This document shows positions 1,657 to 37,871 of a stretch of 64,000 nt of DNA, piece after piece. The notes below the pieces were generated by a model. That model made no database searches. It saw only the letters and a program-made list of their open reading frames with translations, and was not told where the DNA came from. The translations under genes were made by a program, and so were the position numbers. The stretch covers positions 7,407-71,406 of the forward strand of contig DATISY010000090.1 of the NCBI GenBank assembly GCA_035468285.1, given 5' to 3'. Each line of letters opens with the position of its first letter. Positions within the stretch are counted from its first letter, which is position 1. The stretch is from Acidimicrobiia bacterium (lineage in GTDB: Bacteria > Actinomycetota > Acidimicrobiia > IMCC26256 > PALSA-555).

Positions 1657-1659
1657 TCG

Positions 1660-3204: not shown

Positions 3205-3223
3205 GGCTTTTCGATACCTCGCT

Positions 3224-5284: not shown

Positions 5285-5290
5285 GGTTCG

Positions 5291-5590: not shown

Positions 5591-5591
5591 C

Positions 5592-6098: not shown

Positions 6099-6102
6099 GG
6101 CG

Positions 6103-10368: not shown

Positions 10369-10405
10369 TGCGAGCCGGCCCTCTCGATCCCCCGGGGATG
10401 CACCG

Positions 10406-16742: not shown

Positions 16743-16743
16743 A

Positions 16744-18804: not shown

Positions 18805-18828
18805 CGGGTCACCGTGCCGTCCATGCGG

Positions 18829-26085: not shown

Positions 26086-27371
26086 CAGCGGTCGGTCTCG
26101 CCCATGATCGGATCCAAGCTGGAGATGATGGCGACCGCGTCGGAGACCATCCCTCCGACGGCGATCGTCCCGAGTGACTGCAGGTTGTACAGGGACGGGC
26201 CTCGGATGTGCAGCCGAACTGGCTTGCTAGTGCCGTCCGACACGAGGTAGCAGCCGATCTCGCCGCGGGGAGATTCGACGCTGACGTAGGTCTCCCCTGG
26301 CGGGACGCGGAACCCCTCGGTGAACAGCTTGAAGTGGTGGATGAGCGCTTCCATCGATTCGTCGATCCGGGCGCGGGGTGGCGGAGTCACCTTGCGGTCC
26401 TGGACCCGGAAGTCGCCGAGCGGCATGGCGTCGATGCACTGGCGGACGATCTTGATCGACTCGAGGATCTCGTCGAGGCGGATCCGGAACCGGTCGTAGC
26501 AGTCACCGTTGTGGCCGTACACGACGTCGAAGTCGACCTGGTCGTAGGCCAGGTACGGCTGGGCCTTGCGCAGGTCCCAGGGGAAGCCCGTGGCGCGCAG
26601 GATCGGTCCGGTGACACCGAGCGCGATCGCGTCCTCGGTGGAGATGGATCCGACGCCCATCAGGCGTTCGAGGAAGATGGGGTTCTCGCTCAGCAGGTCG
26701 GAGTACTCGCGGACCCCACGCTCGACGGTCTGGCAGAGTTCCTCGGCGTCGTGCTGCCATCCCTCGGGGAGGTCAGCGGCGACGCCGCCGGGCCGGATGA
26801 AGTTGTGGTTCATGCGCAGCCCGGTGATCTTCTCGAGGAAGCGCAGGGTCACTTCCCGTTCGCGCCATCCGTAGACCATCATCGACACCGCGCCGACGTC
26901 CATCCCGTTCGTCGCCTGGAAGAGGAGGTGGGACGACATCCGGTTGAGCTCGACGAGGAGCATGCGGATCCATGTCGCGCGCGGCGGGATGTCGAGGTCG
27001 AGGAGCCGCTCGACCGCGAGCGAGAAGACGAGCTCGTTCGCGAGCGGGGACAGGTAGTCCATGCGGGTCACGTTCGTCGGGCCCTGGACGTAAGTGAGCT
27101 CCTCGCCGGTCTTCTCCATACCGGTGTGCAGGTACCCGATGACCGGCTTGGCCTGGAGGACGGTTTCGCCGTCGAGCTCGAGCATGACCCGCAGCACCCC
27201 ATGCGTGGAGGGGTGCTGGGGGCCCATGTTGATGACCATCGTCTCGTCGTCCTCGGGCCAGAGACCGGTGACGACTTCGTGGTGGGCCCGGCGGAGCTGT
27301 TGGGAGCCTTCGTCGGTCTGGGCCTCGAGGCGCGCTTCCTCCGCTGGGGTCACGTCGATGGGCTCACTCAT
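26085..27371 (-). CDS. nuoD: NADH-quinone oxidoreductase subunit D
   Basis: NMGPQHPSTHGVLR and C-terminal IMGETDR. Start at ATG 27371, overlapping the nuoC stop. Confidence 0.9.
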   Translation of the reverse strand: MSEPIDVTPAEEARLEAQTDEGSQQLRRAHHEVVTGLWPEDDETMVINMGPQHPSTHGVLRVMLELDGETVLQAKPVIGYLHTGMEKTGEELTYVQGPTNVTRMDYLSPLANELVFSLAVERLLDLDIPPRATWIRMLLVELNRMSSHLLFQATNGMDVGAVSMMVYGWREREVTLRFLEKITGLRMNHNFIRPGGVAADLPEGWQHDAEELCQTVERGVREYSDLLSENPIFLERLMGVGSISTEDAIALGVTGPILRATGFPWDLRKAQPYLAYDQVDFDVVYGHNGDCYDRFRIRLDEILESIKIVRQCIDAMPLGDFRVQDRKVTPPPRARIDESMEALIHHFKLFTEGFRVPPGETYVSVESPRGEIGCYLVSDGTSKPVRLHIRGPSLYNLQSLGTIAVGGMVSDAVAIISSLDPIMGETDR

Positions 27372-27925
27372 CGGGGGGCCGGGTCTTCCTTGAACTCGAC
27401 GGGGATCCTCCCCGGGGCGTCGTCCTTGCGGAGCGGGTGCCCGACCCAGTCGTCGGGCATGAGCAGTCGGGTGAGCTCGGGGTGGCCTTCGAAGACGACG
27501 CCGAACATGTCGAACGCCTCGCGCTCCGGGAAGTTCATCGCGGTGTAGACGTCGACGATGCTGGCCAGGGTGGGGTCGTCGCCGGGGAGCTCGCAGATGA
27601 CGCGGATCCGACGGTTGCGGGGGTGGGAGAGGAAGTTCGCGACGACCTCGAAGCGCTGCGGGTCGACGCCGGGTATCACGGCCCGTTCCGCGTCGATGAG
27701 GTGGTCGACGACGGTGAGGTCGAGACACTGCGTGAAGCGCTGCTCGTCGCGCAGGAAGGCGGCGACGTCGTGCCACGCCGAACGGTCGACGTACACGACG
27801 GGTTGACGGTGCGACTCGTGGATGACGCTGCCCGGGAACCGTTCGAGGATGGCCGCGGCGACCTCGTCGGCGGGCGGCGCCGCGGGAGGCTCGCCCGCGG
27901 CGGCTTCGTCGGTATCCGTGGCCAT
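27368..27925 (-). CDS. nuoC: NADH-quinone oxidoreductase subunit C
   Basis: EREAFDMFGVVFEGHP and HPLRKDD motifs. Confidence 0.85.
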   Translation of the reverse strand: MATDTDEAAAGEPPAAPPADEVAAAILERFPGSVIHESHRQPVVYVDRSAWHDVAAFLRDEQRFTQCLDLTVVDHLIDAERAVIPGVDPQRFEVVANFLSHPRNRRIRVICELPGDDPTLASIVDVYTAMNFPEREAFDMFGVVFEGHPELTRLLMPDDWVGHPLRKDDAPGRIPVEFKEDPAPR

Positions 27926-27945
27926 CTCGGTCCTCGGGGCTGGGC

Positions 27946-28512
27946 TCAGGCCGATTTCCGGCGGATCGGGATGGGCTGCACGTGCGACGGCGTGCCGTCG
28001 CGCTGCTCGACGTGGACGCCAGCGCCGGTGCCGCTGACGCGCCGGCGCAGGAGGTCACCGGTGCGGATCTGGTGGTGGAGCGTCAAGATCCCGTGGAAGA
28101 GGGTCTCCGGTCCCGGCGGGCACCCGGGGACGTACACGTCGACGGGGACGATCTGGTCGACGCCTTGGACGAGCGCGTAGTTGTTGAACATCCCGCCGGT
28201 GCTGGCGCACACTCCCATCGAGATGACCCATTTGGGGTCGACCATCTGGTCGTAGACCTGGCGGAGCACCGGGGCCATCTTCTGGCTGACGCGACCGGCG
28301 ACGATCATGAGGTCGGCTTGGCGGGGACTGGCGCGCCACACCTCCATCCCGTAACGGGCGAGGTCGTAGTGCGCGGCGCCGGTCGCCATCATCTCCATGG
28401 CGCAGCACGCGAGACCGAACGTCGCGGGGAACACGGACCGTTGCCGGGCCCATTGCACGAGATCCTCGAGGCGGGCGGTCAAGAAGTTGTGCGGCATCTG
28501 CTCGAGGCCCAT
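27946..28512 (-). CDS. nuoB: NADH-quinone oxidoreductase subunit B
   Basis: [19 protein letters not shown] and VPGCPPGPE motifs. Confidence 0.9.
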
Positions 28513-28515
28513 GCG

Positions 28516-28980
28516 CTACGCCGCTTCCTCACTGGGTTCGGCCTGCGGGTCGAGGCCGTCCCGTCCGGGGGTGCCGGTGGCGCGCAGCATGCGGTGTGCG
28601 ACCCGGTCGCTGACCTGTCGCACGGGGCCCCAGTCGACCGCGCCGGTCGAGAGGAGGTACCCGAACGGGACGAGCAGTGCGAGCAGGAACACACCCATCG
28701 TGACGAGACCGTAGGTGCCGAGGCCCTTGAGGACGGTCGTGAAGGGGTAGATGAAGATGATCTCGACGTCGAGGACGATGAATGCCATCGCGACGAGGTA
28801 GAAGCGCACCGGGAACCGTTCGGATGGCTCGTTCTCGGGAACGATGCCGCACTCGTAGGGGGCTTCCTTCGCCGAGGTCGGTCGCTTGCGGGATCCGAGC
28901 AGCGCCGAAGCGAGGAACGACACCGCGACGAACAGCAAGACGAGCACGACCATCGCGAGGATCGGCAGGTACTGCTCCAC
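28516..28980 (-). CDS. nuoA: NADH-quinone oxidoreductase subunit A (with a roughly 40-aa C-terminal extension)
   Basis: YECGIVP and FIVLDVEIIFIYPF motifs. GGGGAGGGGA Shine-Dalgarno-like run upstream of the GTG. Confidence 0.85.
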   Translation of the reverse strand: MEQYLPILAMVVLVLLFVAVSFLASALLGSRKRPTSAKEAPYECGIVPENEPSERFPVRFYLVAMAFIVLDVEIIFIYPFTTVLKGLGTYGLVTMGVFLLALLVPFGYLLSTGAVDWGPVRQVSDRVAHRMLRATGTPGRDGLDPQAEPSEEAA

Positions 28981-29100: not shown

Positions 29101-30363
29101 CTAGGGCTCGGGGGCGATCGCGACGAGCCGCTCGACGAGGCGGTACGCGACCTCGGCGGGCCCGAGCTCGTCGGGTCGGAGCAGGTTGGCCATGATCCGC
29201 AGCACCCACTCCATGAGGGATCGCGACATGAACCCGACTCGGGTGAGCTCCCGCATGACCGCGGGGTTGCCGATCGCCCGCACGAACGCCCGCGCCACCT
29301 TGAAGTAGAGCCCATAGGTCGCTTCGAGCTGTTCGGGGTAGCGCTGCAGGGCAAGCCCGTCGCCGGTGCGGAGCGCGACGTCGATCGCGGCGGCAGCCAT
29401 CCGGCCGGTCTCGTAGGCGACCGAGATGCCTTCACCGTTGAAGGGGTTCACGGACCCGCCAGCGTCGCCGACCGTGCACCAGGTCGGGCCGACCCGGGGG
29501 AACACGGACAGTCCGGTGGGGAGCTTCCCGCCGGTGGGTGCGCCGCAGGCCGTGTCGGGGGAGATGCCCCAGCGGGCGGGGGCGGTCTCGCAGAACGCCT
29601 CCATCAGCTGGCTGGTGTTGACGTCCTTCCACCCCGAGAAGGTGGAGAGGAGCCCGACGCCGACGTTGATGGTCCCGTCCCCGACGGGGAAGATCCAGCC
29701 GTAGCCGGGGAGGTGCTGGCCGTGCTTGTCGCGCAGGTCGAGGTGGCTCTCGATCCACGGCTCGTCGTGGAAGGGGCTCTGGAAGTAGCCGCGCACGGCC
29801 ATCCCGAGTGGGTACGTCCGGTCCCGGCTGGTGCCGAGGGCCCGCCCGAACCGGGAGTTCGCGCCGTCGGCGACGATGACGTACCGGGCGTGGACGGGCT
29901 CGGGGGTGCCGCTGCCACCGCGCCGGAGGATCGCGCCCGTGACGAGGCCCCCGTCGGCGATGGGCTCGACGGCCTCGGTGCCGGTCCAGAGGGTGGCGCC
30001 GGCCTTGACGGCCCGGTTGGCGACCATGGCGTCGAGGTCCCGGCGGCGCACGACGTAGCCGTACGGCGGGAAGTCCGGATGGTCGGGCCAGGCCAGCTCG
30101 AGGGTGATGCCGTGGGCGATCGAGCGGAGCCCTTCGAACCGGAGGTGGGGTTCGAGCTCCTCGGCGAGGCCGAGGTCCTCGAGCTGGCGGACCGCCCGGG
30201 GGGTCAGGCCGTCACCGCAGGTCTTGTCGCGGGGGAACTGCTTGCGCTCGACGACGAGGACGCGGTGCCCGGCCTCCGCGAGCCAGCACGCCGCGGCGGC
30301 TCCGGATGGGCCACCGCCGACGATCAGCACGTCGAATCGGTCGCGAACGCCCATGTCGACCAT
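29101..30363 (-). CDS. Geranylgeranyl reductase family FAD-dependent oxidoreductase (possible menaquinone/prenyl side-chain reductase)
   Basis: DVLIVGGGPSGAAAACWLAEAG (FAD Rossmann fold), KTCGDGLTPRA and GDAGGSVNPFNGEGI motifs. Start at ATG 30363. The upstream 260 aa of the track ORF is rejected. Confidence 0.75.
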   Translation of the reverse strand: MVDMGVRDRFDVLIVGGGPSGAAAACWLAEAGHRVLVVERKQFPRDKTCGDGLTPRAVRQLEDLGLAEELEPHLRFEGLRSIAHGITLELAWPDHPDFPPYGYVVRRRDLDAMVANRAVKAGATLWTGTEAVEPIADGGLVTGAILRRGGSGTPEPVHARYVIVADGANSRFGRALGTSRDRTYPLGMAVRGYFQSPFHDEPWIESHLDLRDKHGQHLPGYGWIFPVGDGTINVGVGLLSTFSGWKDVNTSQLMEAFCETAPARWGISPDTACGAPTGGKLPTGLSVFPRVGPTWCTVGDAGGSVNPFNGEGISVAYETGRMAAAAIDVALRTGDGLALQRYPEQLEATYGLYFKVARAFVRAIGNPAVMRELTRVGFMSRSLMEWVLRIMANLLRPDELGPAEVAYRLVERLVAIAPEP

Positions 30364-30558: not shown

Positions 30559-31233
30559 ATGCCCAACCTGATGCCCGACTGGCTGCCGTGGATTCGTCCT
30601 GCCGGTCGGCTCCTCTGGGGGATCTTCGCTCTCGGGGTCGGCATGAGCTTCTTCTTGGTCCTCTTGCGCCGACCGTTGCTGAAGCGGCCGTTCCCGAACC
30701 GCCTGGGCTACCTCGCGTTCCCGGTCATCTTGGGAGCCGGGATCATCGGCGCGAAGGTGTTCACCGGCGCGCAGACCGTCATCGTGTGGGCCACCGCGCT
30801 GGCCCTGATCGGGCACGGCCTGCTGATGGTGGCGAGCAGGAAGGGCAGCGACCCGGAGGAGCCCGCCACCTGGGCTGAGTGCTTCGCCGGCGCGGTCGGG
30901 ACCTTCGCCCTGTTCGTGGTCGGCTACGCGATCGTCCCCAGCGAGTGGCTCAACTACGCCAACTCGTACATCCAGTGGGGAGACAACACCAAGTTCGTCT
31001 GGCGCAGCAGTCAGAACATGCTGTTCTTTCCGTGGCACTGGCCGTTCAACCTGGACTACCCCGCGTTGCGCGACATCGTGGTGGCGTTGATCTACGTTGC
31101 CTTCCTCGGTCTCAACCTGAAACTGTGGGTCATGTGGCAGCGGCGCCATGAAGTCCGCGAGCGCGCCGAGACCGCCGGTGAGGCCCCCGCCCGCCGGTCC
31201 CGGTTCGGGCGGCCCCTGCGAGCGAAGGCGTAG
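30559..31233 (+). CDS. Polytopic membrane protein of unknown function, first gene of the b6-type complex operon
   Basis: 224 aa with about 5 hydrophobic helices. 5 nt gap to the ferredoxin gene. GGAGGGAGGA Shine-Dalgarno-like run upstream. No family recognised. Confidence 0.6.
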   Translation: MPNLMPDWLPWIRPAGRLLWGIFALGVGMSFFLVLLRRPLLKRPFPNRLGYLAFPVILGAGIIGAKVFTGAQTVIVWATALALIGHGLLMVASRKGSDPEEPATWAECFAGAVGTFALFVVGYAIVPSEWLNYANSYIQWGDNTKFVWRSSQNMLFFPWHWPFNLDYPALRDIVVALIYVAFLGLNLKLWVMWQRRHEVRERAETAGEAPARRSRFGRPLRAKA

Positions 31234-31238
31234 CGGTC

Positions 31239-31652
31239 ATGGCCCGAACCGACGCGAACCCGCCGATGCCCGACTTCGTCACCGACTACCAGCTCCAAGA
31301 GGTCGATCCCGCGTACCTGACCCAGTCGGTGAAGCCGAAGCAGTTCCTCCACATCGACCAGGAGGAGTGCATCCTCTGCGAGGGGTGCGTCGACATCTGC
31401 CCGTGGAAGTGCATCCACATGGTCTCGGTCGGGGCGATCGCCGAGGCGGTCGGCACGGAGCAGCCCGGCGAGGACCCCAAGGACCACGTGGCGTTCATCG
31501 TGGATGAGGACATCTGCACCCGCTGCGCCCTCTGCGTGGACCGCTGCCCGACGGGCGTGATCATCCTCGGCAAGCTCGGCACCCTCCCCCCCGACGGTGA
31601 CCGGCACACACGCACGGCTCGATACGGCTACGCGTACGGAGTGCGCTTCTAG
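31239..31652 (+). CDS. 2x[4Fe-4S] ferredoxin-type protein
   Basis: CILCEGCVDICP and CTRCALCVDRCP motifs. 137 aa. Confidence 0.85.
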   Translation: MARTDANPPMPDFVTDYQLQEVDPAYLTQSVKPKQFLHIDQEECILCEGCVDICPWKCIHMVSVGAIAEAVGTEQPGEDPKDHVAFIVDEDICTRCALCVDRCPTGVIILGKLGTLPPDGDRHTRTARYGYAYGVRF

Positions 31653-31701
31653 ACGTCCTTCCGCGCTGACGGGGACGAAGAGACACCAAGGAGACAGGTT
31701 C

Positions 31702-32499
31702 GTGGCCAACGGGAACGGGACCAACGGAAACGGGCACGGCCGTCAGCGGGTCGCGGCCGCGGTCGACAAGGTCGACGAGCGGATGCGGGGCTCCCAGGCC
31801 TGGAACTCCATCTTCCGGCCCGGGTCCGTGTACCGGCGGGGCTACACCGACAGCCCCCGCAACCGGTCCTACGTGATCATGAACAACGTCCTGTACCACC
31901 TTCACCCGGTGAAGGTGAAGCGGCACGCGGTGAAGGTGTCATACACGCTGTGCCTCGGGGGCCTGTCCTTCTTCTTGTTCATCCTGCTGACCGTGACCGG
32001 GATCTTCTTGATGTTCTTCTACCGGCCGACGACGGCGTCGGCGTGGAACGACATCAAGACGCTCGAGACCGCGGTCACGTTCGGTTCGCTCGTCCGCAAC
32101 ATGCACCGGTGGGCGGCGCACCTCATGGTGCTGTCCGTCTTCCTCCACATGTGCCGGGTCTTCTACCACGGGGCCTACAAGGCGCCCCGCGAGTTCAACT
32201 GGGTCATCGGCGTGATCCTGCTCACGCTCACCCTGCTGCTGTCCTTCACCGGCTACCTGCTCCCGTGGGACCAGCTGGCGCTCTGGGCGGTGACCGTCGG
32301 GACGAACATGATGGGCTACACGCCCGTGTTCGGCAGCAGCGTGAAATACGTGCTGCTCGGGTCGAAGGAAATTTCGGGCAGCACCCTGCTTCGATGGTAC
32401 GTACTGCATGTCTTGCTGTTGCCGTTCGTCATCGTCATCTTCATGGCCGTGCACTTCTGGCGGGTCCGTAAAGACGGCGGAGTCTCGGGTCCCCTGTAG
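31702..32499 (+). CDS. Cytochrome b6-type cytochrome b (N-terminal four-helix half)
   Basis: Close resemblance to plastid/cyanobacterial b6: YTLCLGG (cf. FYCLGG), FYRPT, HRWAAHLMVLSVFLH (H-x13-H), LHVLLLPFVIVIFMAVH (H-x14-H), PWDQ, and C-terminal RKDGGVSGPL (cf. RKQGISGPL). GTG 31702 is preceded by AAGGAG. Confidence 0.9.
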   Translation: MANGNGTNGNGHGRQRVAAAVDKVDERMRGSQAWNSIFRPGSVYRRGYTDSPRNRSYVIMNNVLYHLHPVKVKRHAVKVSYTLCLGGLSFFLFILLTVTGIFLMFFYRPTTASAWNDIKTLETAVTFGSLVRNMHRWAAHLMVLSVFLHMCRVFYHGAYKAPREFNWVIGVILLTLTLLLSFTGYLLPWDQLALWAVTVGTNMMGYTPVFGSSVKYVLLGSKEISGSTLLRWYVLHVLLLPFVIVIFMAVHFWRVRKDGGVSGPL

Positions 32500-32521
32500 G
32501 TCGAGGGAGTAGGAGCGCGAA

Positions 32522-33364
32522 GTGGCTGACGTCCCCGAACATCTCCTACGCCGCTCCTTGGAGCGCCGGAAGGCCTTGGGTCTGCCCGTCCCCGGTGAGG
32601 AAGGCGGCGAGGCCGCCCCCGAGGCCCCGGCGGAGGCGAGCGCCGCGCCGCCCGAGGCCGCTCCGCCCGACGCGGGGGGCGGCGCCGCGGGTGGCGGCGG
32701 CGAAGACGTCGAGACCGCGGGGGGCGCCAAGAACCCCGCGAACCTGTTGGAGCGCTCGAAGGCCCGTCGGGCCGCCGCGGGCGGGGGTGCGGCCGCCGGC
32801 GCGGCAGCCGGCGCTGGAACCGCGACGGCGGTCGCCGCGCCGCCGGCGCCGACCGCCACGGGCCCGGGGGGTCACACCCAGCGGCTCCTGACGGTCGTGA
32901 AGTCCGGGTCGATCCAACAGACCAAGGCCGAGGCGCAGGACAAGGTGCACACCTGGCCGCACCTGCTGGTCATCGAGTTCGCGGCGATCCTCATCGTGCT
33001 GGCCGCGCTCACCATCTTCTCGGCGTTGGTGAAGGCTCCCCTACTCGGGCTCTCCGATGTCAACAAGACCCCGAACCCGTCGAAGGCACCGTGGTACTTC
33101 CTGGGCCTCCAGGAGCTGCTGACGATGTTCCACCCGATGGTCGCGGGGGTAACGATCCCCGGGATCGGTCTCGGGCTGCTCGCGGTGGCGCCGTTCGTCG
33201 ACAAGAACCCGTCGCACTTCCCGAAGGACCGCAAGTTCGCGATCGCGATCTTCACCATGTTCATCATGCTGTGGGCGGTGCTCGTCATCATCGGATCGTT
33301 CTTCCGGGGAGAGGGCTTCAACTTCGTGTTCCCGTGGAACAACGGGATCTTCTTCGAGCTGTAG
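32522..33364 (+). CDS. Cytochrome b C-terminal half (subunit IV-like) with a roughly 130-aa low-complexity N-terminal extension
   Basis: KAPWYFLGLQELL (a PEWY-box variant, APWY) followed by 2 TM helices. The N-terminal Ala/Gly/Pro-rich region carries two copies of an LL-x-RS-x-x-RR-x-A-x-G motif. Confidence 0.85.
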   Translation: MADVPEHLLRRSLERRKALGLPVPGEEGGEAAPEAPAEASAAPPEAAPPDAGGGAAGGGGEDVETAGGAKNPANLLERSKARRAAAGGGAAAGAAAGAGTATAVAAPPAPTATGPGGHTQRLLTVVKSGSIQQTKAEAQDKVHTWPHLLVIEFAAILIVLAALTIFSALVKAPLLGLSDVNKTPNPSKAPWYFLGLQELLTMFHPMVAGVTIPGIGLGLLAVAPFVDKNPSHFPKDRKFAIAIFTMFIMLWAVLVIIGSFFRGEGFNFVFPWNNGIFFEL

Positions 33365-33377
33365 GTAGGAGCGGAAC

Positions 33378-34229
33378 GTGGCAGTCATCATCGTCGGCGT
33401 GCTCGTCCTGATCGCCTTGGCTGGACTCGTGGTGCTCGGCACCGCGCGGGCCCGGGCGACCACGGGAAGGCTCAGCCGCGAGACGCGCCACCGCGACGCG
33501 TCACCGCCTCCCCCCGACGTCCGACCCGAGCCGGCCGAGGGCGACGAGGTCGATGAGGAGGCCCGGGGCCGGGCCGACGACTCACGCCGCGCGATCGAGA
33601 GCGGCGGGGCGGTACCCGTCCCGGCCGGTGGCCGAGGCGTCGCCCGCTACGAGCCCGTCGACGAGGACGAGCTCGGCGTCACCCGCCGCCAGTTCTTCAA
33701 CCGAGGCATCCTCACCGGGCTGCTCCTCGGCGTGAGCGGATTCGGCGCCGCGTCGTTGGCGTTCCTGTGGCCCGCGGCGGGCGGCGGGTTCGGTGGGAAG
33801 ATCAACATCGGCTCGAAGGCCGATGTCGACGCGGCGATCGCCAAGAAGACGCCGTTCTACAACGCGACCGCGAAGGTGTACATCAACCCGTACCCGAAGG
33901 CCGCGCTCCCGGCGGCCAAGAAGGTGTACTCGCCGCTCGTCCTTCCGGGTTTGCAGCTCGGCTACGTGGCGCTCTACCAACGGTGCGTGCATCTGGGCTG
34001 CCGGGTGCCGTGGTGCCAGTCGTCGCAGTGGTTCGAGTGCCCGTGCCACGGGTCGAAGTACAACCGCGTCGGAGAGAAGAAGGGTGGTCCGGCCCCGCGA
34101 GGCCTGGATCGCTTCCCGTTCGAGATCTCCGGTGGATCGTTCGTGGTCGACACGGGCACCATCGTGCAAGGACCCCCGATCGGTACTAACACCACGGGCC
34201 AGGGCCAGGAAGGGGCATTGTGCGTCTGA
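33378..34229 (+). CDS. Rieske [2Fe-2S] subunit
   Basis: CVHLGC and CPCHGS boxes. Internal Tat-like TRRQFFNRG precedes a TM helix, and there is an extra N-terminal TM helix. Confidence 0.9.
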   Translation: MAVIIVGVLVLIALAGLVVLGTARARATTGRLSRETRHRDASPPPPDVRPEPAEGDEVDEEARGRADDSRRAIESGGAVPVPAGGRGVARYEPVDEDELGVTRRQFFNRGILTGLLLGVSGFGAASLAFLWPAAGGGFGGKINIGSKADVDAAIAKKTPFYNATAKVYINPYPKAALPAAKKVYSPLVLPGLQLGYVALYQRCVHLGCRVPWCQSSQWFECPCHGSKYNRVGEKKGGPAPRGLDRFPFEISGGSFVVDTGTIVQGPPIGTNTTGQGQEGALCV

Positions 34230-34275
34230 GTCCCGCCCCGGCCGCGGTGTTCACATCCGGAGGAACGACCAACTC

Positions 34276-35505
34276 GTGAGCTTCGAGACCGCCATCGTCT
34301 TGCTCAACGTCGTCGTCGTCGTGGCGATCGGCGTATTCGTCGTGTTCCGCGTCGTCAGCTTGCGCCGCAACCCCGAGCCGCGCCCGCCGCTGAACCTGGC
34401 CCCGGGTCTGGCCGACGACGTCCTCGAGGGCCGCAAGCTCGAGCGGGTCCTGGGCTGGGCCCTGCTGTTCACGTTGGTCCTCGCGGTGTCGGTCCCCGTG
34501 TACTTCTTGGTCGAGCCCACCCGCGAGGCGGATGCCAACGCGCAGTTCCTGCGGGAGTCGGTCGCTCGGGGTGCCCGCCTCTTCGCGAACCAGCAGAGCA
34601 AGGCATACGACGCGACGTTCTCGCTGCTGTGCGCCAACTGCCACGGCGTCGACGCCGGCGGCGGGCAGGCCCCGTTCGTCCTCCAGCCCGAGGCGGACAT
34701 CTGCCAGGCGAAGGAGAACCAGAACAACCCCGCGGTGCCCCAGTGCCTCTCCCAGCAGGTGTCGTGGCAGGCGCCGCCACTCAACACGGTGCTGCTGCGC
34801 TTCGACCCGGACCAGGTGGCGCAGGTCATCACGTATGGGAGACCGGGGACACCTATGCCCCCGTGGGGGGTCGCGAGCGGGAAAGGGGTCCTCGGACCGC
34901 AGGGGATCGACGACCTCGTGAACTACCTGCAGAGCATCCAGCTCTCCCAGAAGAAGGCGCAACAGCAGGCGACCGCCGCGGTCGGCCAGTACAAGACGGA
35001 CGCGACGACGTTGGTCACGAACACCCAGAACAGCCTGACGTCGGCGCAGAGCGACCTCGCGGCGGCGCAGGCGCGGGGCGCGGCGGCCACCACGATCGCC
35101 GGGATGCAGGCCAACGTCGCCCAGCTGCAGGCCGAGCTCGCCTCGGCCAAGGCCAACAACGCTGACGTGCAGGGCCTCAGCGAAGGGGCGGTCCTGTTCC
35201 GGCTGAACTGCGCCCGGTGCCACACCAAGAACTGGTCGTTCGCCGACCCGACGAAGCTGAACCAGCCGCCCCCGGCCCGTCAGGGCAGCGGCGCGTTCGG
35301 TCCGGCGCTCACCGACGGGACCACCCTGTTGCAGTTCCCCGGCAGCGCAGGCCGGGACCAGCAGCTGGCGTGGGTCGCCGCCGGGGTGCCCGCCAACCAG
35401 CAGTTCGGCGTGCGGGGCATCTCGTCGGGACGGATGCCGCACTTCGGCCGCATCCTCACCGCGAACCAGATCTCCGAGATCGTGGACTACGAGCGAAACC
35501 TGTAG
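34276..35505 (+). CDS. Membrane-anchored diheme cytochrome c
   Basis: Two CxxCH motifs (CANCH, CARCH) with candidate Met ligands (TPMPPWG, GRMPHFG). Two N-terminal TM helices. An Ala/Gln-rich linker separates the heme domains. GTG 34276 is preceded by GGAGGA. Confidence 0.85.
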   Translation: MSFETAIVLLNVVVVVAIGVFVVFRVVSLRRNPEPRPPLNLAPGLADDVLEGRKLERVLGWALLFTLVLAVSVPVYFLVEPTREADANAQFLRESVARGARLFANQQSKAYDATFSLLCANCHGVDAGGGQAPFVLQPEADICQAKENQNNPAVPQCLSQQVSWQAPPLNTVLLRFDPDQVAQVITYGRPGTPMPPWGVASGKGVLGPQGIDDLVNYLQSIQLSQKKAQQQATAAVGQYKTDATTLVTNTQNSLTSAQSDLAAAQARGAAATTIAGMQANVAQLQAELASAKANNADVQGLSEGAVLFRLNCARCHTKNWSFADPTKLNQPPPARQGSGAFGPALTDGTTLLQFPGSAGRDQQLAWVAAGVPANQQFGVRGISSGRMPHFGRILTANQISEIVDYERNL

Positions 35506-35518
35506 ACGGAGCGATTCA

Positions 35519-36349
35519 GTGCCATCCTTCCTCGCCCAAGTCGCCCCGCCACCCCCGAGCGGGATCTGGTACCCGACGATCCTCGGCATCCTGGTCGTCG
35601 CCGTCGCGATCATGTTGTTCTGCGGGTCGATCTACGTGCTGCTCGCCACCAACCTCGGTGCCCGGCTCGGTTTCCTCTGTGCGTTCACCGCGCTGACGGG
35701 CTTCATGGTCCTCCTGACGACGCTGTGGATGTTCACCGCGTCACCGTTGAACACGCTCAAGGGCACCCCGCCCGTGTGGAAGCTCGTGACGGTCACCAAG
35801 AAGCTCGATCAGTCGTCGATCCCGCCGGCGGTCCGCTCCGCGCCGGTGAAGGGCCGGAAGGTGCCGACCGCCAGCCAGTCGGATCTCAAGGCGGTCGTCG
35901 ACGCCGCGCTCGTGACCAAGCAGCCGATCGCCAACATCCCGTCGCCGGCGAACGCGAACCAGTACGCCAAGTTCCAGGCCGTCACGGACTACACGACCAC
36001 GAACTACTACGAGGTCGGGGGTAGCAACCCGCACCTCCTGGACTGGCAGATCAGCCATCAGCCGCTCTACGCGGTGGTGCAATTCTGTGCCGTACCGCCG
36101 AACACGCTGCCGTTCGGGGTGCCGCCCCCGCCCCCGACGTGTGACAAGACCTCACCCGCGAACGGATTCGCGATCCTCAAGCGGGACTTCGGTTCGTTGC
36201 GGATCCCACCGTTCGTGACGTTCGTGATCTCGGTGATCCTGTTCGGGCTCGGTCTGCTGTCGCTGCACTGGCGGGAGAAGGACGAGCGGGCCCTGGCGGC
36301 CGCCGAGGCCGAGGCCACCAAGCTCGTCCCGACGCCGGCGTCGACCTGA
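35519..36349 (+). CDS. Membrane protein of unknown function (2 N-terminal TM, extracytoplasmic domain, C-terminal TM)
   Basis: 276 aa. 13 nt after the cytochrome c stop. No family recognised. Confidence 0.55.
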   Translation: MPSFLAQVAPPPPSGIWYPTILGILVVAVAIMLFCGSIYVLLATNLGARLGFLCAFTALTGFMVLLTTLWMFTASPLNTLKGTPPVWKLVTVTKKLDQSSIPPAVRSAPVKGRKVPTASQSDLKAVVDAALVTKQPIANIPSPANANQYAKFQAVTDYTTTNYYEVGGSNPHLLDWQISHQPLYAVVQFCAVPPNTLPFGVPPPPPTCDKTSPANGFAILKRDFGSLRIPPFVTFVISVILFGLGLLSLHWREKDERALAAAEAEATKLVPTPAST

Positions 36350-36354
36350 CAAGG

Positions 36355-36594
36355 ATGGTGACGATGCGTTCCATTCGATCGTTCGTCTCGGCGGCGCTCG
36401 TCGTCGCGGCAGTGGTCGTGGGCGCGGCGGTCCCCGCGGGCGCCCAGCAGCTCGTCGACGCCGGTGGTGACAACGGGCAGGGCGGCCTGGCGTTCGTGCT
36501 CATGGCCGTCATGGTGTTCCTGATCGGCTTCTCGTTGTTCTTCATGGACCGGGTCCGGCGACGGCGGGCCGCCGAGCAGGACGAGCGCCGCTAA
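36355..36594 (+). CDS. Small exported/membrane-anchored protein
   Basis: 79 aa with signal-like N-terminus (AAVPAGAQQ), a C-terminal TM helix and a basic tail. 5 nt after the previous gene. Confidence 0.45.
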   Translation: MVTMRSIRSFVSAALVVAAVVVGAAVPAGAQQLVDAGGDNGQGGLAFVLMAVMVFLIGFSLFFMDRVRRRRAAEQDERR

Positions 36595-37871
36595 CCCGAT
36601 CCGGTGATCTCCGCAGCGGCGACCGCGGCGGCATCGACGGTCCGGGCGATCACCGCGTCGTCGTGGGCGGCGCTCGGGAAGAGCGCCTCGAACGGGCTCG
36701 GCGCGAGGAACACTCCCTGGGCGAGCATGGCCTGGAAGAACTGGGCGTAGCGCTTCCCGTCCGCGGCGCGGGCTGTCTCGTAGTCGGTGACCGGCACGTC
36801 GGAGAAGAACAGGCCGGCCAGCGTCCAGGCTCGCGGTGCCTGCACCGCGAGCCCGGCGGCGCCGATCGCGGCGGTGAGGCCTTCCTGGAGGCGCTGCGCC
36901 CGGCGTTCGAGCTCGTCGTAGAGCCCCGCGTCGAGGCGGGCCAGGACCGCGAGCCCCGCCGCGGTGGCGAGCGGGTTCCCTGAGAGGGTGCCGGCCTGGT
37001 AGACGGGCCCGGCGGGGGCGAGCTCGTCGAGGAGGGGGCCGGGTCCGCCGAGGGCGGCGAGCGGCAGGCCGCCTCCGAGGACCTTCCCGAAGATGGTCAG
37101 GTCGGGGGTGATCCCGGTGCGGCCCTGCGCGCCGGCGGGCCCGACGCGAAAACCCGTGATCACCTCGTCGAACACCAGCAGCGCGCCGCTCGTGTCGCAT
37201 CGGCGGCGGAGCCCGGCGAGGAACCCCGGCGCGGGGGACACGAGCCCCATGTTGGCGGCGACGGGCTCGACGAGGAGCGCGGCGATGTCGTCCCCGTGGG
37301 CGGCGAACAGCGCGTCGAGCGCGTCGTCGTCGTTGTAGGGGGCGACGAGCGTGTCGGCGACGGTCCCGTCGGTGACCCCGGCCGAGCCGGGGATTCCGAG
37401 GGTGGCGACACCACTGCCGGCGGCGACGAGCAGCGCGTCGACATGGCCGTGGTAGCCGCCGGCGAACTTGACGATCTTGGCCCGGCCGGTCGCGCCCCGG
37501 GCCAGGCGCACCGCGGTCATGGCGGCCTCGGTGCCGGAGGAGACGAGCCGGAGCTTCTCGACCGACGGGACGCGGGCGGCGACGGCTTCGGCGAGCTCGA
37601 CCTCGGCGGCGGTGGGAGCACCGAAGGACGTCCCGTCCGCCGCGGCGCGCTGCACCGCTTCGACGACGGCGGGGTGCGCGTGGCCGAGGATCGACGCGCC
37701 CCACGACTGGACGTAGTCGATGTAACGGGTGCCGTCGGTCGCGATCAGGTAGGCGCCATCACCTCGGGCGACGAAGAACGGGTCGTGTCCGACACTGGCG
37801 AACGACCGGACCGGGGAGTTGACGCCACCGGGGATGCGGGCGAGTGCCCGCGCCCAGAGGTCGTCGCTCAT
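36591..37871 (-). CDS. hemL: Glutamate-1-semialdehyde 2,1-aminomutase
   Basis: 426 aa with IPGGVNSPVRSF N-terminus and FDEVITGFR motif. Confidence 0.9.
   Translation of the reverse strand: MSDDLWARALARIPGGVNSPVRSFASVGHDPFFVARGDGAYLIATDGTRYIDYVQSWGASILGHAHPAVVEAVQRAAADGTSFGAPTAAEVELAEAVAARVPSVEKLRLVSSGTEAAMTAVRLARGATGRAKIVKFAGGYHGHVDALLVAAGSGVATLGIPGSAGVTDGTVADTLVAPYNDDDALDALFAAHGDDIAALLVEPVAANMGLVSPAPGFLAGLRRRCDTSGALLVFDEVITGFRVGPAGAQGRTGITPDLTIFGKVLGGGLPLAALGGPGPLLDELAPAGPVYQAGTLSGNPLATAAGLAVLARLDAGLYDELERRAQRLQEGLTAAIGAAGLAVQAPRAWTLAGLFFSDVPVTDYETARAADGKRYAQFFQAMLAQGVFLAPSPFEALFPSAAHDDAVIARTVDAAAVAAAEITGSG

What the first reader, a model, noticed from the sequence alone, without database searches (positions are those of the whole stretch)
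30559..36594. Eight-gene operon for a cytochrome b6-type Rieske/cytochrome b complex with a built-in 2x[4Fe-4S] ferredoxin and three unknown membrane proteins, in an Actinomycetota-like genome
**Seen in the sequence**
- Eight same-strand genes are separated by only 5-49 nt.
- The order is: 5-TM unknown protein, dicluster ferredoxin (CILCEGCVDICP / CTRCALCVDRCP), cytochrome b6, subunit IV, Rieske protein (CVHLGC / CPCHGS), diheme cytochrome c, 3-TM unknown protein, and a 79-aa anchored protein.
- The b subunit is split and strikingly b6-like. It has YTLCLGG at the position of the FYCLGG cysteine that binds heme ci in b6f. It has H-x14-H spacing in helix D. Its C-terminus is RKDGGVSGPL.
- The Qo-site PEWY box reads APWY, so the usual Glu is missing.

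**Established knowledge**
- Characterised actinobacterial complex III is QcrCAB, with one long unsplit cytochrome b.
- Split b6/subunit IV with heme ci is known from cyanobacteria/plastids, Bacillota and Heliobacteria.

**Inference**
- This is a distinct quinol-oxidising module.
- The ferredoxin and extra membrane subunits could provide a low-potential or bifurcating branch, or a dedicated partner interface.
- It sits directly beside two complex I operons and the heme-biosynthesis/rex cluster.
Basis: partly seen in the sequence, partly recalled or inferred. Interest (0 to 1): 0.78.

Follow-up and report, generated by a model that had tools for sequence, protein, structure and literature searches.

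The report
Ferredoxin-bearing b6-type respiratory complex III operon
This is a real, tightly conserved operon for the quinol-oxidising "complex III" of Acidimicrobiia-type actinobacteria; its cytochrome b resembles the photosynthetic b6 type, and the operon always carries a small two-cluster ferredoxin and two unknown membrane proteins that nobody has yet described or tested.

Summary
Eight same-strand genes lie 5-49 nt apart: a 5-helix unknown protein, a 2x[4Fe-4S] ferredoxin, a cytochrome b6-like protein, subunit IV, a Rieske protein, a dihaem cytochrome c, a 3-TM unknown protein and a small anchored peptide.

All quoted motifs are present and invariant in relatives: CLGG at the haem-ci cysteine, the four His ligands, APWY and the Rieske boxes.

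The first seven genes form a fixed module:
- It is kept in about 70 Acidimicrobiia genomes.
- Metagenome loci found with a divergent ferredoxin query show cytochrome b6 right after the ferredoxin in 55 of 55 cases.
- It always sits beside respiratory and haem genes (nuo, hemL, cox, ccm/ccs).

The b6 features themselves are not new. Kao & Hunte (2014) defined this uncharacterised "APWY clade" and listed an Acidimicrobiia member.

I found no description of the obligatory ferredoxin or of the two fold-less membrane proteins. The nearest precedent is the Kuenenia Rieske/cytochrome b complexes, which carry FeS/FAD subunits on the cytoplasmic side.

Best reading: this is the lineage's housekeeping menaquinol:cytochrome c reductase, with the ferredoxin as a cytoplasmic-side subunit wired to haem ci. 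Subunit status and direction of electron flow are inferred, not shown. It is a new variant of a known kind and moderately to highly interesting.

The parts
30559..31233 (+). g1: 224-aa basic (pI 10.4) integral membrane protein of unknown family. It has 5 predicted helices, a conserved N-terminus MPNLLPDW, an aromatic-rich p-side loop (EWL.YAN.YL.WGD) and a basic cytoplasmic tail RRSRFGRPLR.
   Evidence: - ORF preceded by the ribosome-binding site GGAGG.
- No Pfam, NCBIfam or PDB sequence hit.
- AlphaFold2 model with mean pLDDT 81 and 5 helices; no Foldseek match in the PDB.
- 358 homologue clusters, all labelled hypothetical.
- Present in 69 of 72 genome loci.
- Shorter (129-152 aa) weak homologues occupy the same slot in distant lineages, often overlapping the ferredoxin start by 4 nt.
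31239..31652 (+). Ferredoxin: 137-aa acidic (pI 4.7) 2x[4Fe-4S] protein with no signal peptide or TM segment, so cytoplasmic. It has a conserved ~35-aa N-terminal extension and, within Acidimicrobiia, a conserved C-terminal tail (HGYGYGMRF).
   Evidence: - Fer4 family hits; the best NCBIfam similarity is NuoI-like but far below cut-off.
- All 8 cluster cysteines plus the CPWxC cysteine are invariant in 85 loci.
- Median identity is 70%, second only to b6 in the operon.
- Length is almost always 137-138 aa.
- b6 follows it in 55 of 55 informative metagenome loci.
31702..32499 (+). Cytochrome b6-like subunit: 265 aa, 4 TM helices, four His haem ligands and CLGG at the haem-ci cysteine. It also has a nearly invariant, basic extra N-terminal segment on the cytoplasmic (n) side (SQAWNSIFRPGSxFRKGYTDSPRNRSY).
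   Evidence: - Start at GTG 31702 with AAGGAG upstream; the same 265-aa protein is called in public data.
- PF00033 at 3.9e-47. NCBIfam ExtP model: 308 bits, above its 290 cut-off. b6 PRK03735 model: 212 bits, below its 325 cut-off. Actinobacterial QcrB model: 117 bits, below 500.
- The best solved relatives are plastid and cyanobacterial b6, with Cys35 and the ligands aligned.
- Motif invariance across loci.
32522..33364 (+). Subunit IV: 280 aa, 3 TM helices, Qo-site motif APWY. It has a long A/G/P-rich cytoplasmic N-terminal extension that begins with the conserved motif VPEHLLRRSxERR, repeated once internally.
   Evidence: - PF00032 at 2.9e-7; the ExtQ model scores 57 bits, below its 150 cut-off.
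- KAPWYF is invariant in 75 loci.
- PEHLL motif.
- No PDB sequence hit.
33378..34229 (+). Rieske [2Fe-2S] protein: 283 aa. It has an extra N-terminal TM helix, a charged cytoplasmic loop, a twin-arginine motif (RRQFF) before the second TM helix, and cluster boxes CVHLGC and CPCHGSKY.
   Evidence: - PF00355; the best NCBIfam and PDB relatives are b6f PetC and the two Kuenenia Rieske/cytochrome b Rieske proteins (9rk3, 9rk4).
- The cluster boxes, the Ser and Tyr after box II, and the RR motif are conserved in 74-76 loci.
34276..35505 (+). Dihaem class-I cytochrome c: 409 aa. It has two N-terminal TM helices, haem motifs CANCHG and CARCHT, and a Q/A-rich linker between the two haem domains.
   Evidence: - Start at GTG 34276 after GGAGG; the 409-aa protein is called in public data.
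- Cytochrome_CBB3 and Cytochrom_C hits; weak hit to the actinobacterial QcrC model (25 bits, below the 200 cut-off).
- Both CxxCH motifs are conserved.
- They are the only CxxCH motifs found in any frame of the window.
35519..36349 (+). g7: 276-aa membrane protein of unknown family. It has two N-terminal TM helices, a ~150-aa extracytoplasmic alpha/beta domain with two conserved cysteines, and a C-terminal TM helix ending in LHWRExDE.
   Evidence: - No Pfam, NCBIfam or PDB hit.
- AlphaFold2 model with pLDDT 73; no Foldseek match.
- 954 homologue clusters, all labelled hypothetical.
- Present in 64 of 70 genome loci.
- Detectable homologues sit at the same place in distant lineages (E 1e-8 to 1e-12), and in 16 of 17 metagenome loci.
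36355..36594 (+). g8: 79-aa small protein with a signal-like N-terminus and one TM helix followed by an RRRR stretch. It is lineage-specific. Its stop overlaps the convergent hemL stop by 4 nt.
   Evidence: - ORF.
- Conserved in only 11 of 66 loci, at 44-64% identity.
- An unrelated 34-aa TM peptide occupies the slot in L084.
29101..30363 (-). Context: divergent FAD-dependent, geranylgeranyl-reductase-like gene (MenJ-like; function inferred), followed by nuoA-N (13663-28980, minus strand).
   Evidence: - FAD_binding_3 and DAO hits.
- A homologue lies directly upstream in 44 related loci.
- nuo genes identified.
36591..37871 (-). Context: convergent hemL (glutamate-1-semialdehyde aminomutase), then hemB and a cobA/hemD fusion. 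The hemL adjacency is kept even in distant lineages.
   Evidence: - Aminotran_3, ALAD, and TP_methylase + HEM4 hits.
- hemL lies beside the module in L081, L084 and many other loci.

Best explanation
**Core identity**
- The operon encodes the respiratory menaquinol:cytochrome c oxidoreductase (complex III) of Acidimicrobiia and allied deep Actinomycetota.
- It is a b6c-type Rieske/cytochrome b complex of the uncharacterised 'APWY' clade.

**Core mechanism (shown by homology)**
- Menaquinol is oxidised at a Qo site formed by b6, subunit IV (APWY) and the Rieske protein.
- One electron goes through the Rieske cluster to a membrane-anchored dihaem cytochrome c and on to a terminal oxidase.
- The other crosses the membrane through haems bL and bH to a probably covalently bound haem ci at the Qi site.

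**Lineage-specific parts (inferred)**
- The 137-aa acidic 2x[4Fe-4S] ferredoxin is a stoichiometric peripheral subunit on the cytoplasmic (n) side.
- It is held by the basic, invariant N-terminal extension of b6 and/or the basic tail of the 5-helix protein g1.
- Its clusters lie within electron-transfer distance of haem ci/bH, giving the complex an n-side electron port to the cytoplasmic low-potential pool.
- The most likely direction is ferredoxin-type electrons entering the Qi site, either to prime the Q cycle or as ferredoxin:menaquinone reduction.
- g1 and g7 are supernumerary membrane subunits, and g8 is a variable small peptide.
For: **Core identity**
- Pfam and NCBIfam assignments.
- Residue-level alignment to solved b6, with Cys35, the 4 His ligands and the C-terminus conserved.
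- All catalytic motifs are invariant in relatives.
- The Rieske protein is closest to b6f PetC and to the Kuenenia Rieske/cytochrome b Rieske proteins.

**Operon and complex**
- Gaps are 5-49 nt, with no convincing internal terminators.
- The seven-gene order is kept in about 70 genomes, in three distant MAG loci whose ferredoxin is 35-41% identical, and in 55 of 55 (b6), 17 of 17 (Rieske, cytochrome c) and 16 of 17 (g7) metagenome loci.
- The g1-like gene overlaps the ferredoxin start by 4 nt in L081 and L083.

**Housekeeping respiratory role**
- The module always lies next to nuoA-N (co-oriented just downstream in 52 loci), a MenJ-like reductase and hemL.
- In distant lineages it lies next to COX1/COX2/CtaA/CtaB and Ccm or Ccs/ResB cytochrome c maturation genes.
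- MAG studies and IMG annotate it as complex III.

**Ferredoxin as a subunit**
- It is the second most conserved protein of the operon, at 70% median identity against 50% for the Rieske protein.
- Its length is fixed, and its own N-terminal extension is conserved across all lineages.
- It has no export signal.
- Charges are complementary: ferredoxin pI 4.7 against b6 pI 10.3 and g1 pI 10.4.
- The b6 n-side extension is nearly invariant and lies upstream of where the match to the Geobacter-type ExtP model begins.

**Precedent**
- Kuenenia Rieske/cytochrome b complexes carry n-side FeS/FAD subunits. These were modelled with a haem cN to [4Fe-4S] path (PMC12954380).
Against: - There is no experimental or structural evidence that the ferredoxin, g1 or g7 are in the complex. 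Multimer modelling was not available.
- High conservation also fits a soluble ferredoxin with many partners.
- The haem-ci cysteine motif is necessary but not sufficient. Kao & Hunte note that haem ci is unverified in the APWY clade.
- I could not check whether the same genomes also encode QcrCAB or an alternative complex III, so 'the' complex III is unproven.
- Two MAGs hold a lone b6 copy.
- The Geobacter ExtOPQ relatives have no ferredoxin, so the ferredoxin is not needed for the core chemistry.
- The direction of electron flow through the ferredoxin is a guess.
Confidence: 0.6

Rival explanations
1. The core is a normal complex III, but the ferredoxin (with g1) is a biogenesis factor and not a subunit. 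For example, it could supply reducing power on the cytoplasmic side for the thioether attachment of haem ci to the CLGG cysteine, a functional analogue of the plastid CCB system. On this reading g7 is an assembly chaperone on the outer side.
For: - Firmicutes and this clade have the haem-ci cysteine, yet g1, g7 and g8 hit no known family, CCB families included. Some unknown maturation machinery must therefore exist.
- Assembly factors are often encoded at the head of respiratory operons.
- The module sits beside cytochrome c maturation and haem synthesis genes.
Against: - Assembly factors are rarely the second most conserved protein of an operon.
- Nor are they usually translationally coupled in a fixed order in every lineage.
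- A 2x[4Fe-4S] protein has no precedent in haem ligation.
- The Geobacter ExtP clade has the same CxGG motif without this ferredoxin.
Confidence: 0.13
2. The ferredoxin is a soluble electron carrier that is only co-transcribed with complex III. It serves neighbouring enzymes instead. One candidate is the adjacent geranylgeranyl-reductase-like (MenJ-like) menaquinone saturase, as archaeal GGRs use a neighbouring ferredoxin. The other is the NuoEFG-less 11-subunit complex I encoded in the window.
For: - A GGR-like gene is divergent from the operon in the window and in 44 related loci.
- In L085 and L086 a core-only ferredoxin homologue sits next to GGR-nuoA with no b6 operon.
- The window has a nuoABCDHIJKLMN cluster lacking the NADH-binding module. 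That type uses ferredoxin in cyanobacteria (established knowledge).
Against: - The ferredoxin-b6 link is far more constant (55 of 55; 75 of 77) than the ferredoxin-GGR link. GGR is absent from L081, L083, L084, L062 and many others.
- The L085 protein lacks the family's N-terminal extension, matching only residues 36-113, so it is not an orthologue.
- The ferredoxin is always between g1 and b6, never next to GGR or nuo genes.
Confidence: 0.12
3. The complex is an electron-bifurcating or reverse-running machine. Oxidation of menaquinol by a high-potential Rieske/cytochrome c branch drives the second electron uphill through bL, bH and ci into the bound ferredoxin, making low-potential reductant. 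Alternatively, it runs backwards, as Kao & Hunte proposed for APWY complexes.
For: - APWY lacks the Qo-site carboxylate, and the clade was suggested to work in reverse.
- The Rieske box II is CPCHGS-x-Y in 74 of 75 loci. The Ser/Tyr pair is associated with high-potential Rieske proteins (established knowledge).
- Its sequence is as close to the > +300 mV Kuenenia Rieske proteins as to PetC.
- Exactly this scheme was argued for Kuenenia, with FeS clusters leading away from haem cN.
Against: - The hosts are mostly aerobic heterotrophs, and the operon sits with complex I and oxidase genes. That fits ordinary forward respiration.
- There is no flavin or NAD(P) module to take the electrons on.
- Redox potentials cannot be read from sequence.
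- Losing the Q-cycle electron would halve proton yield.
Confidence: 0.1

Closest known systems
'APWY clade' of Rieske/cytochrome b complexes (Kao & Hunte 2014, PMC4122944); probably within subfamily G of Dibrova et al. 2013/2017 (PMC5600118), an equivalence I infer and did not test
   Same: - Split cytochrome b (b6 + subunit IV).
- APWY Qo motif.
- CxGG haem-ci motif.
- Adjacent Rieske gene.
- The clade list already includes an Acidimicrobiia member (Ilumatobacter).
- b6 scores above the cut-off of the NCBIfam ExtP model built on this type.
   Different: - The cysteine motif is T-L-C-L-G-G, not the clade's usual WCMGG.
- The published descriptions I could read do not mention the ferredoxin, g1 or g7.
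- No member of the clade has been characterised biochemically.
Kuenenia stuttgartiensis Rieske/cytochrome b complexes Kuste4569-4574 and Kustd1480-1485 (PMC12954380; de Almeida 2016)
   Same: - Short b6-type cytochrome b, plus an Fe-S protein on the cytoplasmic side that is proposed to exchange electrons with haem bN/cN.
- The Rieske proteins are mutually similar (9rk3 and 9rk4 are hit at E 1e-12 to 1e-13).
   Different: - The Kuenenia partner is a large FAD/NAD(P) oxidoreductase with about four clusters. Here it is only a 15-kDa 2x[4Fe-4S] protein with no flavin or nucleotide domain.
- Kuenenia has multihaem/HAO-type p-side subunits. Here there is a dihaem class-I cytochrome c.
- There are no g1 or g7 equivalents that I know of.
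Cytochrome b6f (PetB/PetD/PetC/PetA) of cyanobacteria and plastids
   Same: - Best solved-structure relative of the b6 subunit (E about 3e-48).
- Cys35, the four His ligands, the H-x14-H spacing and the C-terminal RK.G.SGPL are conserved.
- Split subunit IV.
- Ferredoxin has long been proposed to feed haem cn in cyclic flow.
   Different: - APWY in place of PEWY.
- No cytochrome f.
- No PetG/L/M/N.
- Below the NCBIfam b6 cut-off (212 vs 325 bits).
- Menaquinone host (established knowledge for Actinomycetota).
- The ferredoxin is encoded in the operon, not a free stromal protein.
Bacillus QcrABC and heliobacterial PetCBDA b6c complexes
   Same: - Menaquinol-oxidising b6-type complexes of Gram-positive bacteria with haem ci.
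- Heliobacteria also use a dihaem cytochrome c.
- IMG labels the b6 here 'bacillus type'.
   Different: - Bacillus fuses subunit IV to cytochrome c. Here subunit IV has no cysteine at all.
- The Qo motif is PDWY/PEWY there.
- No ferredoxin, g1 or g7.
Actinobacterial QcrCAB (bcc) of the CIII2CIV2 supercomplex
   Same: - Same phylum and the same presumed role (menaquinol to aa3 oxidase).
- Membrane-anchored dihaem cytochrome c.
- Rieske protein with extra N-terminal TM helix or helices.
   Different: - QcrB is one long unsplit protein without the haem-ci cysteine.
- All three NCBIfam actinobacterial models are missed by wide margins.
- Different cytochrome b clade.
Geobacter ExtO/ExtP/ExtQ in the extHIJKLMNOPQS cluster (PMC5877670)
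   Same: b6 passes the ExtP 'equivalog' model (308 bits vs a 290 cut-off), and RefSeq names the Aquihabitans orthologue ExtP.
   Different: - No porin, rhodanese, selenoprotein or multihaem cytochromes here. The only CxxCH motifs in the window are the two in g6.
- The ExtQ model is below cut-off (57 vs 150 bits).
- The Ext cluster has no ferredoxin.
- The ExtP name is therefore over-specific for Acidimicrobiia.

Membership tests
Rieske/cytochrome b complex, APWY clade (probably within Dibrova subfamily G) | Cytochrome b split into a 4-helix b6-like protein and a 3-helix subunit IV, encoded side by side | tested here: met
   PF00033 on the 265-aa protein and PF00032 on the next gene; TM counts.
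Rieske/cytochrome b complex, APWY clade (probably within Dibrova subfamily G) | Qo motif APWY in subunit IV | tested here: met
   KAPWYF is present and invariant in 75 of 75 related loci.
Rieske/cytochrome b complex, APWY clade (probably within Dibrova subfamily G) | CxGG motif at the haem-ci position of b6 | tested here: met
   CLGG aligns to Cys35-x-G-G of spinach b6 and is invariant in 80 loci. Actual haem attachment cannot be tested here.
Rieske/cytochrome b complex, APWY clade (probably within Dibrova subfamily G) | Adjacent Rieske [2Fe-2S] protein with both cluster boxes | tested here: met
   PF00355; CVHLGC and CPCHGS are conserved.
Rieske/cytochrome b complex, APWY clade (probably within Dibrova subfamily G) | Phylogenetic placement of cytochrome b inside the clade | tested here: inconclusive
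   No tree was built. Indirect support: the ExtP-type model scores best and above its cut-off, and the literature places Ilumatobacter in the clade.
Cytochrome b6f | PetB-type b6 above the curated model cut-off | tested here: not met
   NF002990 scores 212 bits against a cut-off of 325, although the ligands and Cys35 align.
Cytochrome b6f | Cytochrome f, and PEWY in subunit IV | tested here: not met
   The c-type subunit is a dihaem class-I cytochrome. The motif is APWY.
Actinobacterial QcrCAB (bcc) | Long unsplit QcrB, QcrA and QcrC matching the actinobacterial models | tested here: not met
   NF050120 scores 117 vs 500 bits, NF050121 scores 22 vs 275, and NF050122 scores 25 vs 200.
Bacillus-type QcrABC | Subunit IV fused to a cytochrome c domain; PDWY motif | tested here: not met
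   Subunit IV has no cysteine and so no CxxCH. The motif is APWY.
Kuenenia-type Rieske/cytochrome b complex with an n-side NAD(P) oxidoreductase | FAD/NAD(P)-binding Fe-S subunit encoded in the operon | tested here: not met
   The only n-side candidate is a 137-aa Fer4 dicluster protein. No operon gene has a flavin or nucleotide domain.
Geobacter Ext (selenite/tellurite) cluster | ExtP-type cytochrome b | tested here: met
   NF040969 scores 308 bits against a cut-off of 290.
Geobacter Ext (selenite/tellurite) cluster | ExtQ above cut-off, plus porin ExtI, rhodanese ExtH and multihaem ExtKL/M/N/S nearby | tested here: not met
   ExtQ scores 57 bits against a cut-off of 150. There are no further CxxCH motifs in the 64-kb window. 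The neighbours are nuo, GGR and hem genes.
NuoI (complex I 2x[4Fe-4S] subunit) | Score above the TIGR01971 cut-off | tested here: not met
   It scores 41 bits against a cut-off of 113. Both nuo clusters have their own Fer4 gene.

The most novel reading that the evidence does not exclude
**Claim**
- The operon-encoded ferredoxin is a permanent cytoplasmic-side subunit whose clusters exchange electrons with haem ci.
- That would make this a natural b6-type complex with a hard-wired ferredoxin-to-quinone-site connection.

**Two possible directions**
- It runs as a ferredoxin:menaquinone reductase, the long-debated 'FQR' activity of b6f.
- Or it bifurcates menaquinol electrons between cytochrome c and ferredoxin, making low-potential reductant in aerobic bacteria.
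Probability: 0.25. Interest if true: 0.88.

Novelty: new variant of a known kind. Interest (0 to 1): 0.62.

Why it matters
**Ecological reach**
- Acidimicrobiia are abundant in oceans, lakes, soils and activated sludge (Microthrix).
- If this module is their complex III, a large part of environmental actinobacterial respiration runs through an enzyme type that has never been purified.

**Why the enzyme type is unusual**
- It combines a photosynthesis-like b6 core and a Qo site lacking the canonical carboxylate.
- It also has a probable haem ci and an obligatory [4Fe-4S] ferredoxin.

**An open question it could address**
- What haem ci is for, and whether ferredoxin can feed the quinone-reduction site of b6-type complexes, have been debated for the b6f complex for decades.
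- A complex that encodes its own ferredoxin next to b6 would make that question directly testable in a non-photosynthetic, cultivable host.
- It would also test the bifurcation idea raised for the anammox complexes.

**Practical annotation points**
- Two protein families with no fold or family assignment (g1, g7) can now be labelled as complex-III-associated.
- The RefSeq name 'ExtP, selenite/tellurite reduction' for the b6 subunit in this lineage looks misleading.

Tried and rejected
- **Remote homology for g1 and g7.** PDB sequence searches and AlphaFold2 models searched with Foldseek against the PDB found nothing. Pfam scans of 44 members each at E <= 1 gave only TM-driven noise. There were no hits to CCB haem-ci maturation families.
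- **Subunit IV and cytochrome c against PDB sequences.** No hits.
- **Gene fusions as evidence of physical association.** The long 'fusion' proteins in the 50%-identity library (P0380, P0396, P0416, P0424 and others) are frameshifted or read-through calls with out-of-frame R/S/T-rich stretches. L082 is an error-rich contig. Rejected as evidence.
- **Relatives outside Actinomycetota.** tblastn of b6 against plasmids returned two Bacillus-type QcrB and one Aureibacter cytochrome b, all below 60% identity. The weakest ferredoxin hits were uninformative: P0478 sits beside GGR-nuoA with no b6 operon, and P0492 and P0498 lie on contigs too short to show context. Whether non-actinobacterial APWY complexes carry a similar ferredoxin stays open.
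- **Promoter and terminator scan.** No sigma-70 consensus upstream, and only weak terminator-like hairpins inside coding sequence.
- **Literature.** Dibrova 2013 (PMC3839093) is not held, and the supplements of Kao & Hunte are not held. Searches for APWY, Acidimicrobiia, Rieske and ferredoxin found no paper describing this accessory set.
- **Is the ferredoxin a misplaced NuoI?** Rejected. It scores far below the cut-off, and both nuo clusters have their own.
- **Is the operon a Geobacter-type Ext system?** Rejected on context.

Full report
**1. What is there**

The region 30559-36594 holds eight + strand ORFs.

Two starts needed correcting. The b6 gene most likely begins at GTG 31702, which is 8 nt after AAGGAG. 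The cytochrome c gene begins at GTG 34276, after GGAGG. Proteins of exactly these lengths (265 and 409 aa) are already called in public assemblies.

A consensus scan found no sigma-70-like promoter and only weak hairpins inside coding sequence. The last gene overlaps the stop of the convergent hemL by 4 nt.

Domain assignments:

| Gene | Assignment |
|---|---|
| Gene 2 | Fer4 dicluster protein |
| Gene 3 | Cytochrome_B (3.9e-47) |
| Gene 4 | Cytochrom_B_C |
| Gene 5 | Rieske |
| Gene 6 | Class-I cytochrome c with two CxxCH |
| Genes 1, 7, 8 | No family hit |

**2. The b6 features are real and strongly constrained**

- phmmer against all PDB chains puts plastid and cyanobacterial b6 first (about 3e-48), well ahead of bc1 and actinobacterial QcrB.
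- In the printed alignment, the Cys of YTLCLGG falls on Cys35 of FYCLGG. The helix-B and helix-D His pairs align with 13- and 14-residue spacing. RKDGGVSGPL aligns to RKQ-GISGPL.
- Across 75-85 related loci the following are invariant or nearly so:
  - the CLGG cysteine;
  - APWY;
  - both Rieske boxes, including the Ser and Tyr after box II;
  - the twin-arginine motif of the Rieske protein;
  - both haem-c motifs;
  - all ferredoxin cysteines.
- NCBIfam places b6 above the cut-off of the ExtP model (308 vs 290 bits). It falls below the b6 model (212 vs 325) and far below actinobacterial QcrB (117 vs 500). The Rieske protein and the cytochrome c likewise miss the actinobacterial QcrA and QcrC models.

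**3. Whose it is, and how conserved**

The best 80 are nearly all labelled Acidimicrobiia or unclassified Actinomycetota, bar a few MAGs with evidently wrong labels (Bifidobacterium, Acidobacteria). They include Ilumatobacteraceae, Microthrixaceae, Iamia, Aquihabitans sp. G128 and Salinilacustrithrix flava.

Presence among loci that cover the expected position:

| Gene | Loci with the gene | Median identity |
|---|---|---|
| g1 | 69 of 72 | 31% |
| Ferredoxin | 75 of 77 | 70% |
| b6 | — | 82% |
| Subunit IV | 73 of 75 | 65% |
| Rieske | 71 of 73 | 50% |
| Cytochrome c | 69 of 71 | 32% |
| g7 | 64 of 70 | 32% |
| g8 | 11 of 66 | 53% |

The two loci without a ferredoxin (L023, L049) carry a lone b6 copy with no partners at all.

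An exhaustive search of a 50%-identity protein library with the ferredoxin gave only 39 clusters below 1e-30. The full-length distant ones (37-45% identity) are labelled Actinomycetota.

Their contigs (L081, L083, L084) show the same order: small TM protein, ferredoxin, b6, subunit IV, Rieske, cytochrome c, ~250-aa membrane protein.
- The small protein is a weak homologue of the C-terminal half of g1.
- The last protein is a clear homologue of g7.

A metagenome scan seeded with these divergent ferredoxins gave:
- b6 directly after the ferredoxin in 55 of 55 loci with enough sequence;
- a g1-like gene before it in 60 of 66;
- Rieske in 17 of 17, cytochrome c in 17 of 17 and g7 in 16 of 17.

The seven-gene module is therefore an old, fixed unit. 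g8 is a lineage-specific add-on.

**4. Neighbourhood**

In the window:
- Upstream and divergent lies a geranylgeranyl-reductase-like flavoprotein (29101-30363), then a 14-subunit nuoA-N cluster (13663-28980) that includes NuoF and NuoG.
- Further on is an 11-gene nuoABCDHIJKLMN cluster without nuoEFG (193 to about 10400).
- Downstream and convergent lie hemL, hemB and a cobA/hemD fusion; rex follows a little further on.

In relatives:
- In 52 related genomes nuoA-nuoB follow g7 on the same strand.
- The GGR-like gene is directly upstream in 44.
- hemL is nearby in 43.
- In the distant lineages the flanks hold COX1, a COX2-cytochrome c fusion, CtaA, CtaB, DsbD, and Ccm or ResB/CcsA cytochrome c maturation genes.

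This is the signature of a core aerobic respiratory enzyme. MAG papers and IMG already label the b6 subunit as complex III or 'bacillus-type' quinol:cytochrome c reductase.

**5. The accessory proteins**

*Ferredoxin*
- It is acidic (pI 4.7) and has no signal peptide, Tat motif or TM segment, so it stays in the cytoplasm.
- Besides the two CxxCxxCxxxCP motifs it has an invariant extra cysteine (CPWxC).
- It has a family-specific N-terminal extension (DY.L.EVD..WL...VKPK) kept in all lineages. Within Acidimicrobiia it also has a conserved C-terminal tail.
- Its nearest named relatives are NuoI and polyferredoxin domains, all far below cut-offs.

*b6, subunit IV and Rieske extensions*
- b6 carries a basic, almost invariant extra N-terminal segment on the same (n) side. 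It lies upstream of where the ExtP model starts to match.
- Subunit IV has a long A/G/P-rich cytoplasmic extension that begins with a conserved PEHLL-type motif.
- The Rieske protein has an extra N-terminal helix and a charged cytoplasmic loop.

*g1*
- It models confidently as five helices (pLDDT 81).
- By the positive-inside rule, its aromatic-rich loop faces out and its basic tail RRSRFGRPLR faces in.

*g7*
- It has two helices, a ~150-residue outer alpha/beta domain with two conserved cysteines, and a last helix.

Neither g1 nor g7 matches any solved fold or Pfam family.

**6. What is already known**

- Kao & Hunte (2014) defined an 'APWY clade' of split cytochromes b that carry the CxGG motif. 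They listed delta-proteobacteria, Chloroflexi, Nitrospirales, Planctomycetes, deep Firmicutes and Actinobacteria, naming Ilumatobacter coccineum of the Acidimicrobidae. They stressed that no member has been characterised and that haem ci is unverified there. They speculated that these complexes run in reverse.
- Dibrova et al. describe a taxonomically mixed, mostly short cytochrome b 'subfamily G'. They note that its short cytochromes b co-occur with cytoplasmic FeS/NAD(P) oxidoreductases, as in Kuenenia. I take the APWY clade to fall within this subfamily; that is my inference.
- For Kuenenia, a 2025 study measured Rieske potentials above +300 mV. It modelled an electron path from haem bN/cN through [4Fe-4S] clusters to FAD. 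The Rieske protein here is as similar to those two proteins as to PetC.
- The Geobacter ExtOPQ relatives have no ferredoxin.
- I found no paper that mentions the ferredoxin, g1 or g7 of this operon.

**7. Interpretation**

Shown:
- It is a real, co-oriented, tightly spaced and deeply conserved gene set.
- It encodes a Rieske/cytochrome b complex of the b6/APWY type with a dihaem cytochrome c.
- It sits in a respiratory gene neighbourhood.

Inferred with good support:
- It is the lineage's menaquinol:cytochrome c reductase.
- Its cytochrome c passes electrons to a terminal oxidase.

Inferred with moderate support:
- The ferredoxin, g1 and g7 are subunits.
- The arguments are the fixed position between g1 and b6, translational coupling, conservation higher than the Rieske protein, a cytoplasmic location that matches new conserved basic n-side segments of b6 and g1, and the Kuenenia precedent.

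Guess:
- The ferredoxin connects haem ci/bH with the low-potential cytoplasmic pool.
- I favour electron entry, either to prime the Q cycle (an idea discussed for haem cn) or as ferredoxin:menaquinone reduction.
- The reverse, bifurcating direction is the more exciting minority reading. The Ser/Tyr Rieske signature and the missing Qo carboxylate keep it alive.

Rivals:
- The ferredoxin and g1 could be haem-ci maturation factors.
- The ferredoxin could be a soluble carrier for the neighbouring GGR-like reductase or for the NuoEFG-less complex I.
- The second rival is weakened because the ferredoxin-b6 link is constant while the GGR link is not.

**8. Verdict**

- The b6/APWY/CxGG part is known from comparative genomics.
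- The obligatory ferredoxin plus two fold-less membrane proteins is, as far as I could find, undescribed. That makes this a new variant of a known kind.
- The main gaps are the lack of a multimer model, the lack of any biochemistry, and no check for a second complex III in the same genomes.

Noticed in passing
window 193-10400 (- strand): A second complex I-like cluster, nuoA-B-C-D-H-I-J-K-L-M-N, has no nuoE/F/G (NADH-binding module). It lies next to a full 14-subunit nuo operon (13663-28980). Such N-module-less enzymes use ferredoxin or another donor in other organisms. That is of interest given the ferredoxin in the neighbouring operon.
   Followed up: partly
window 32522-32580 and 32720-32790; also L017, L019, L024, L025, L027, L046, L047 upstream genes: Subunit IV starts with a conserved cytoplasmic motif, [IV]PEHL[LR][KR]R[SA]xExR, repeated once inside its A/G/P-rich extension (NPANLLERSKARR). 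The same motif heads a separate monohaem cytochrome c gene (~240-290 aa) upstream of the operon in many Acidimicrobiales. Its function is unknown.
   Followed up: partly
L023:10001-10804 and L049:10001-10873: Two Ilumatobacteraceae MAGs carry a lone b6 gene (73-79% identical) with no ferredoxin, subunit IV or Rieske gene nearby. In L023 it lies between a large membrane protein and an ECF sigma factor/ABC transporter. It could be a paralogue or an assembly artefact.
   Followed up: partly
L071:9986-10759 (Aquihabitans sp. G128, WP_216997113.1): RefSeq names the b6 orthologue 'selenite/tellurite reduction operon b-type cytochrome ExtP' because NF040969 scores just above its cut-off. No ext-type porin, rhodanese or multihaem genes are nearby. 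The 'equivalog' name appears over-specific for this lineage.
   Followed up: yes
L085:3278-3628 and L086:2165-2515: A 116-aa ferredoxin matches only the cluster core (no N-terminal extension). It sits divergent to a GGR-like gene and nuoA-B-C, the same position as the operon in the window. It is followed by an ECF sigma/anti-sigma pair, not by b6.
   Followed up: no
L016, L025, L037, L048, L062, L065, L067, L071, L075 and others (52 loci), about 14500-16000: In most Acidimicrobiales nuoA-nuoB... follow the g7 gene on the same strand within a few hundred bases, so complexes III and I may be co-transcribed. In the window's closest relatives the nuo operon is instead upstream and divergent.
   Followed up: partly
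window 36591-36594: The stop codons of the 79-aa gene (+) and of hemL (-) overlap by 4 nt, so the two are convergent with no intergenic space for a terminator.
   Followed up: no
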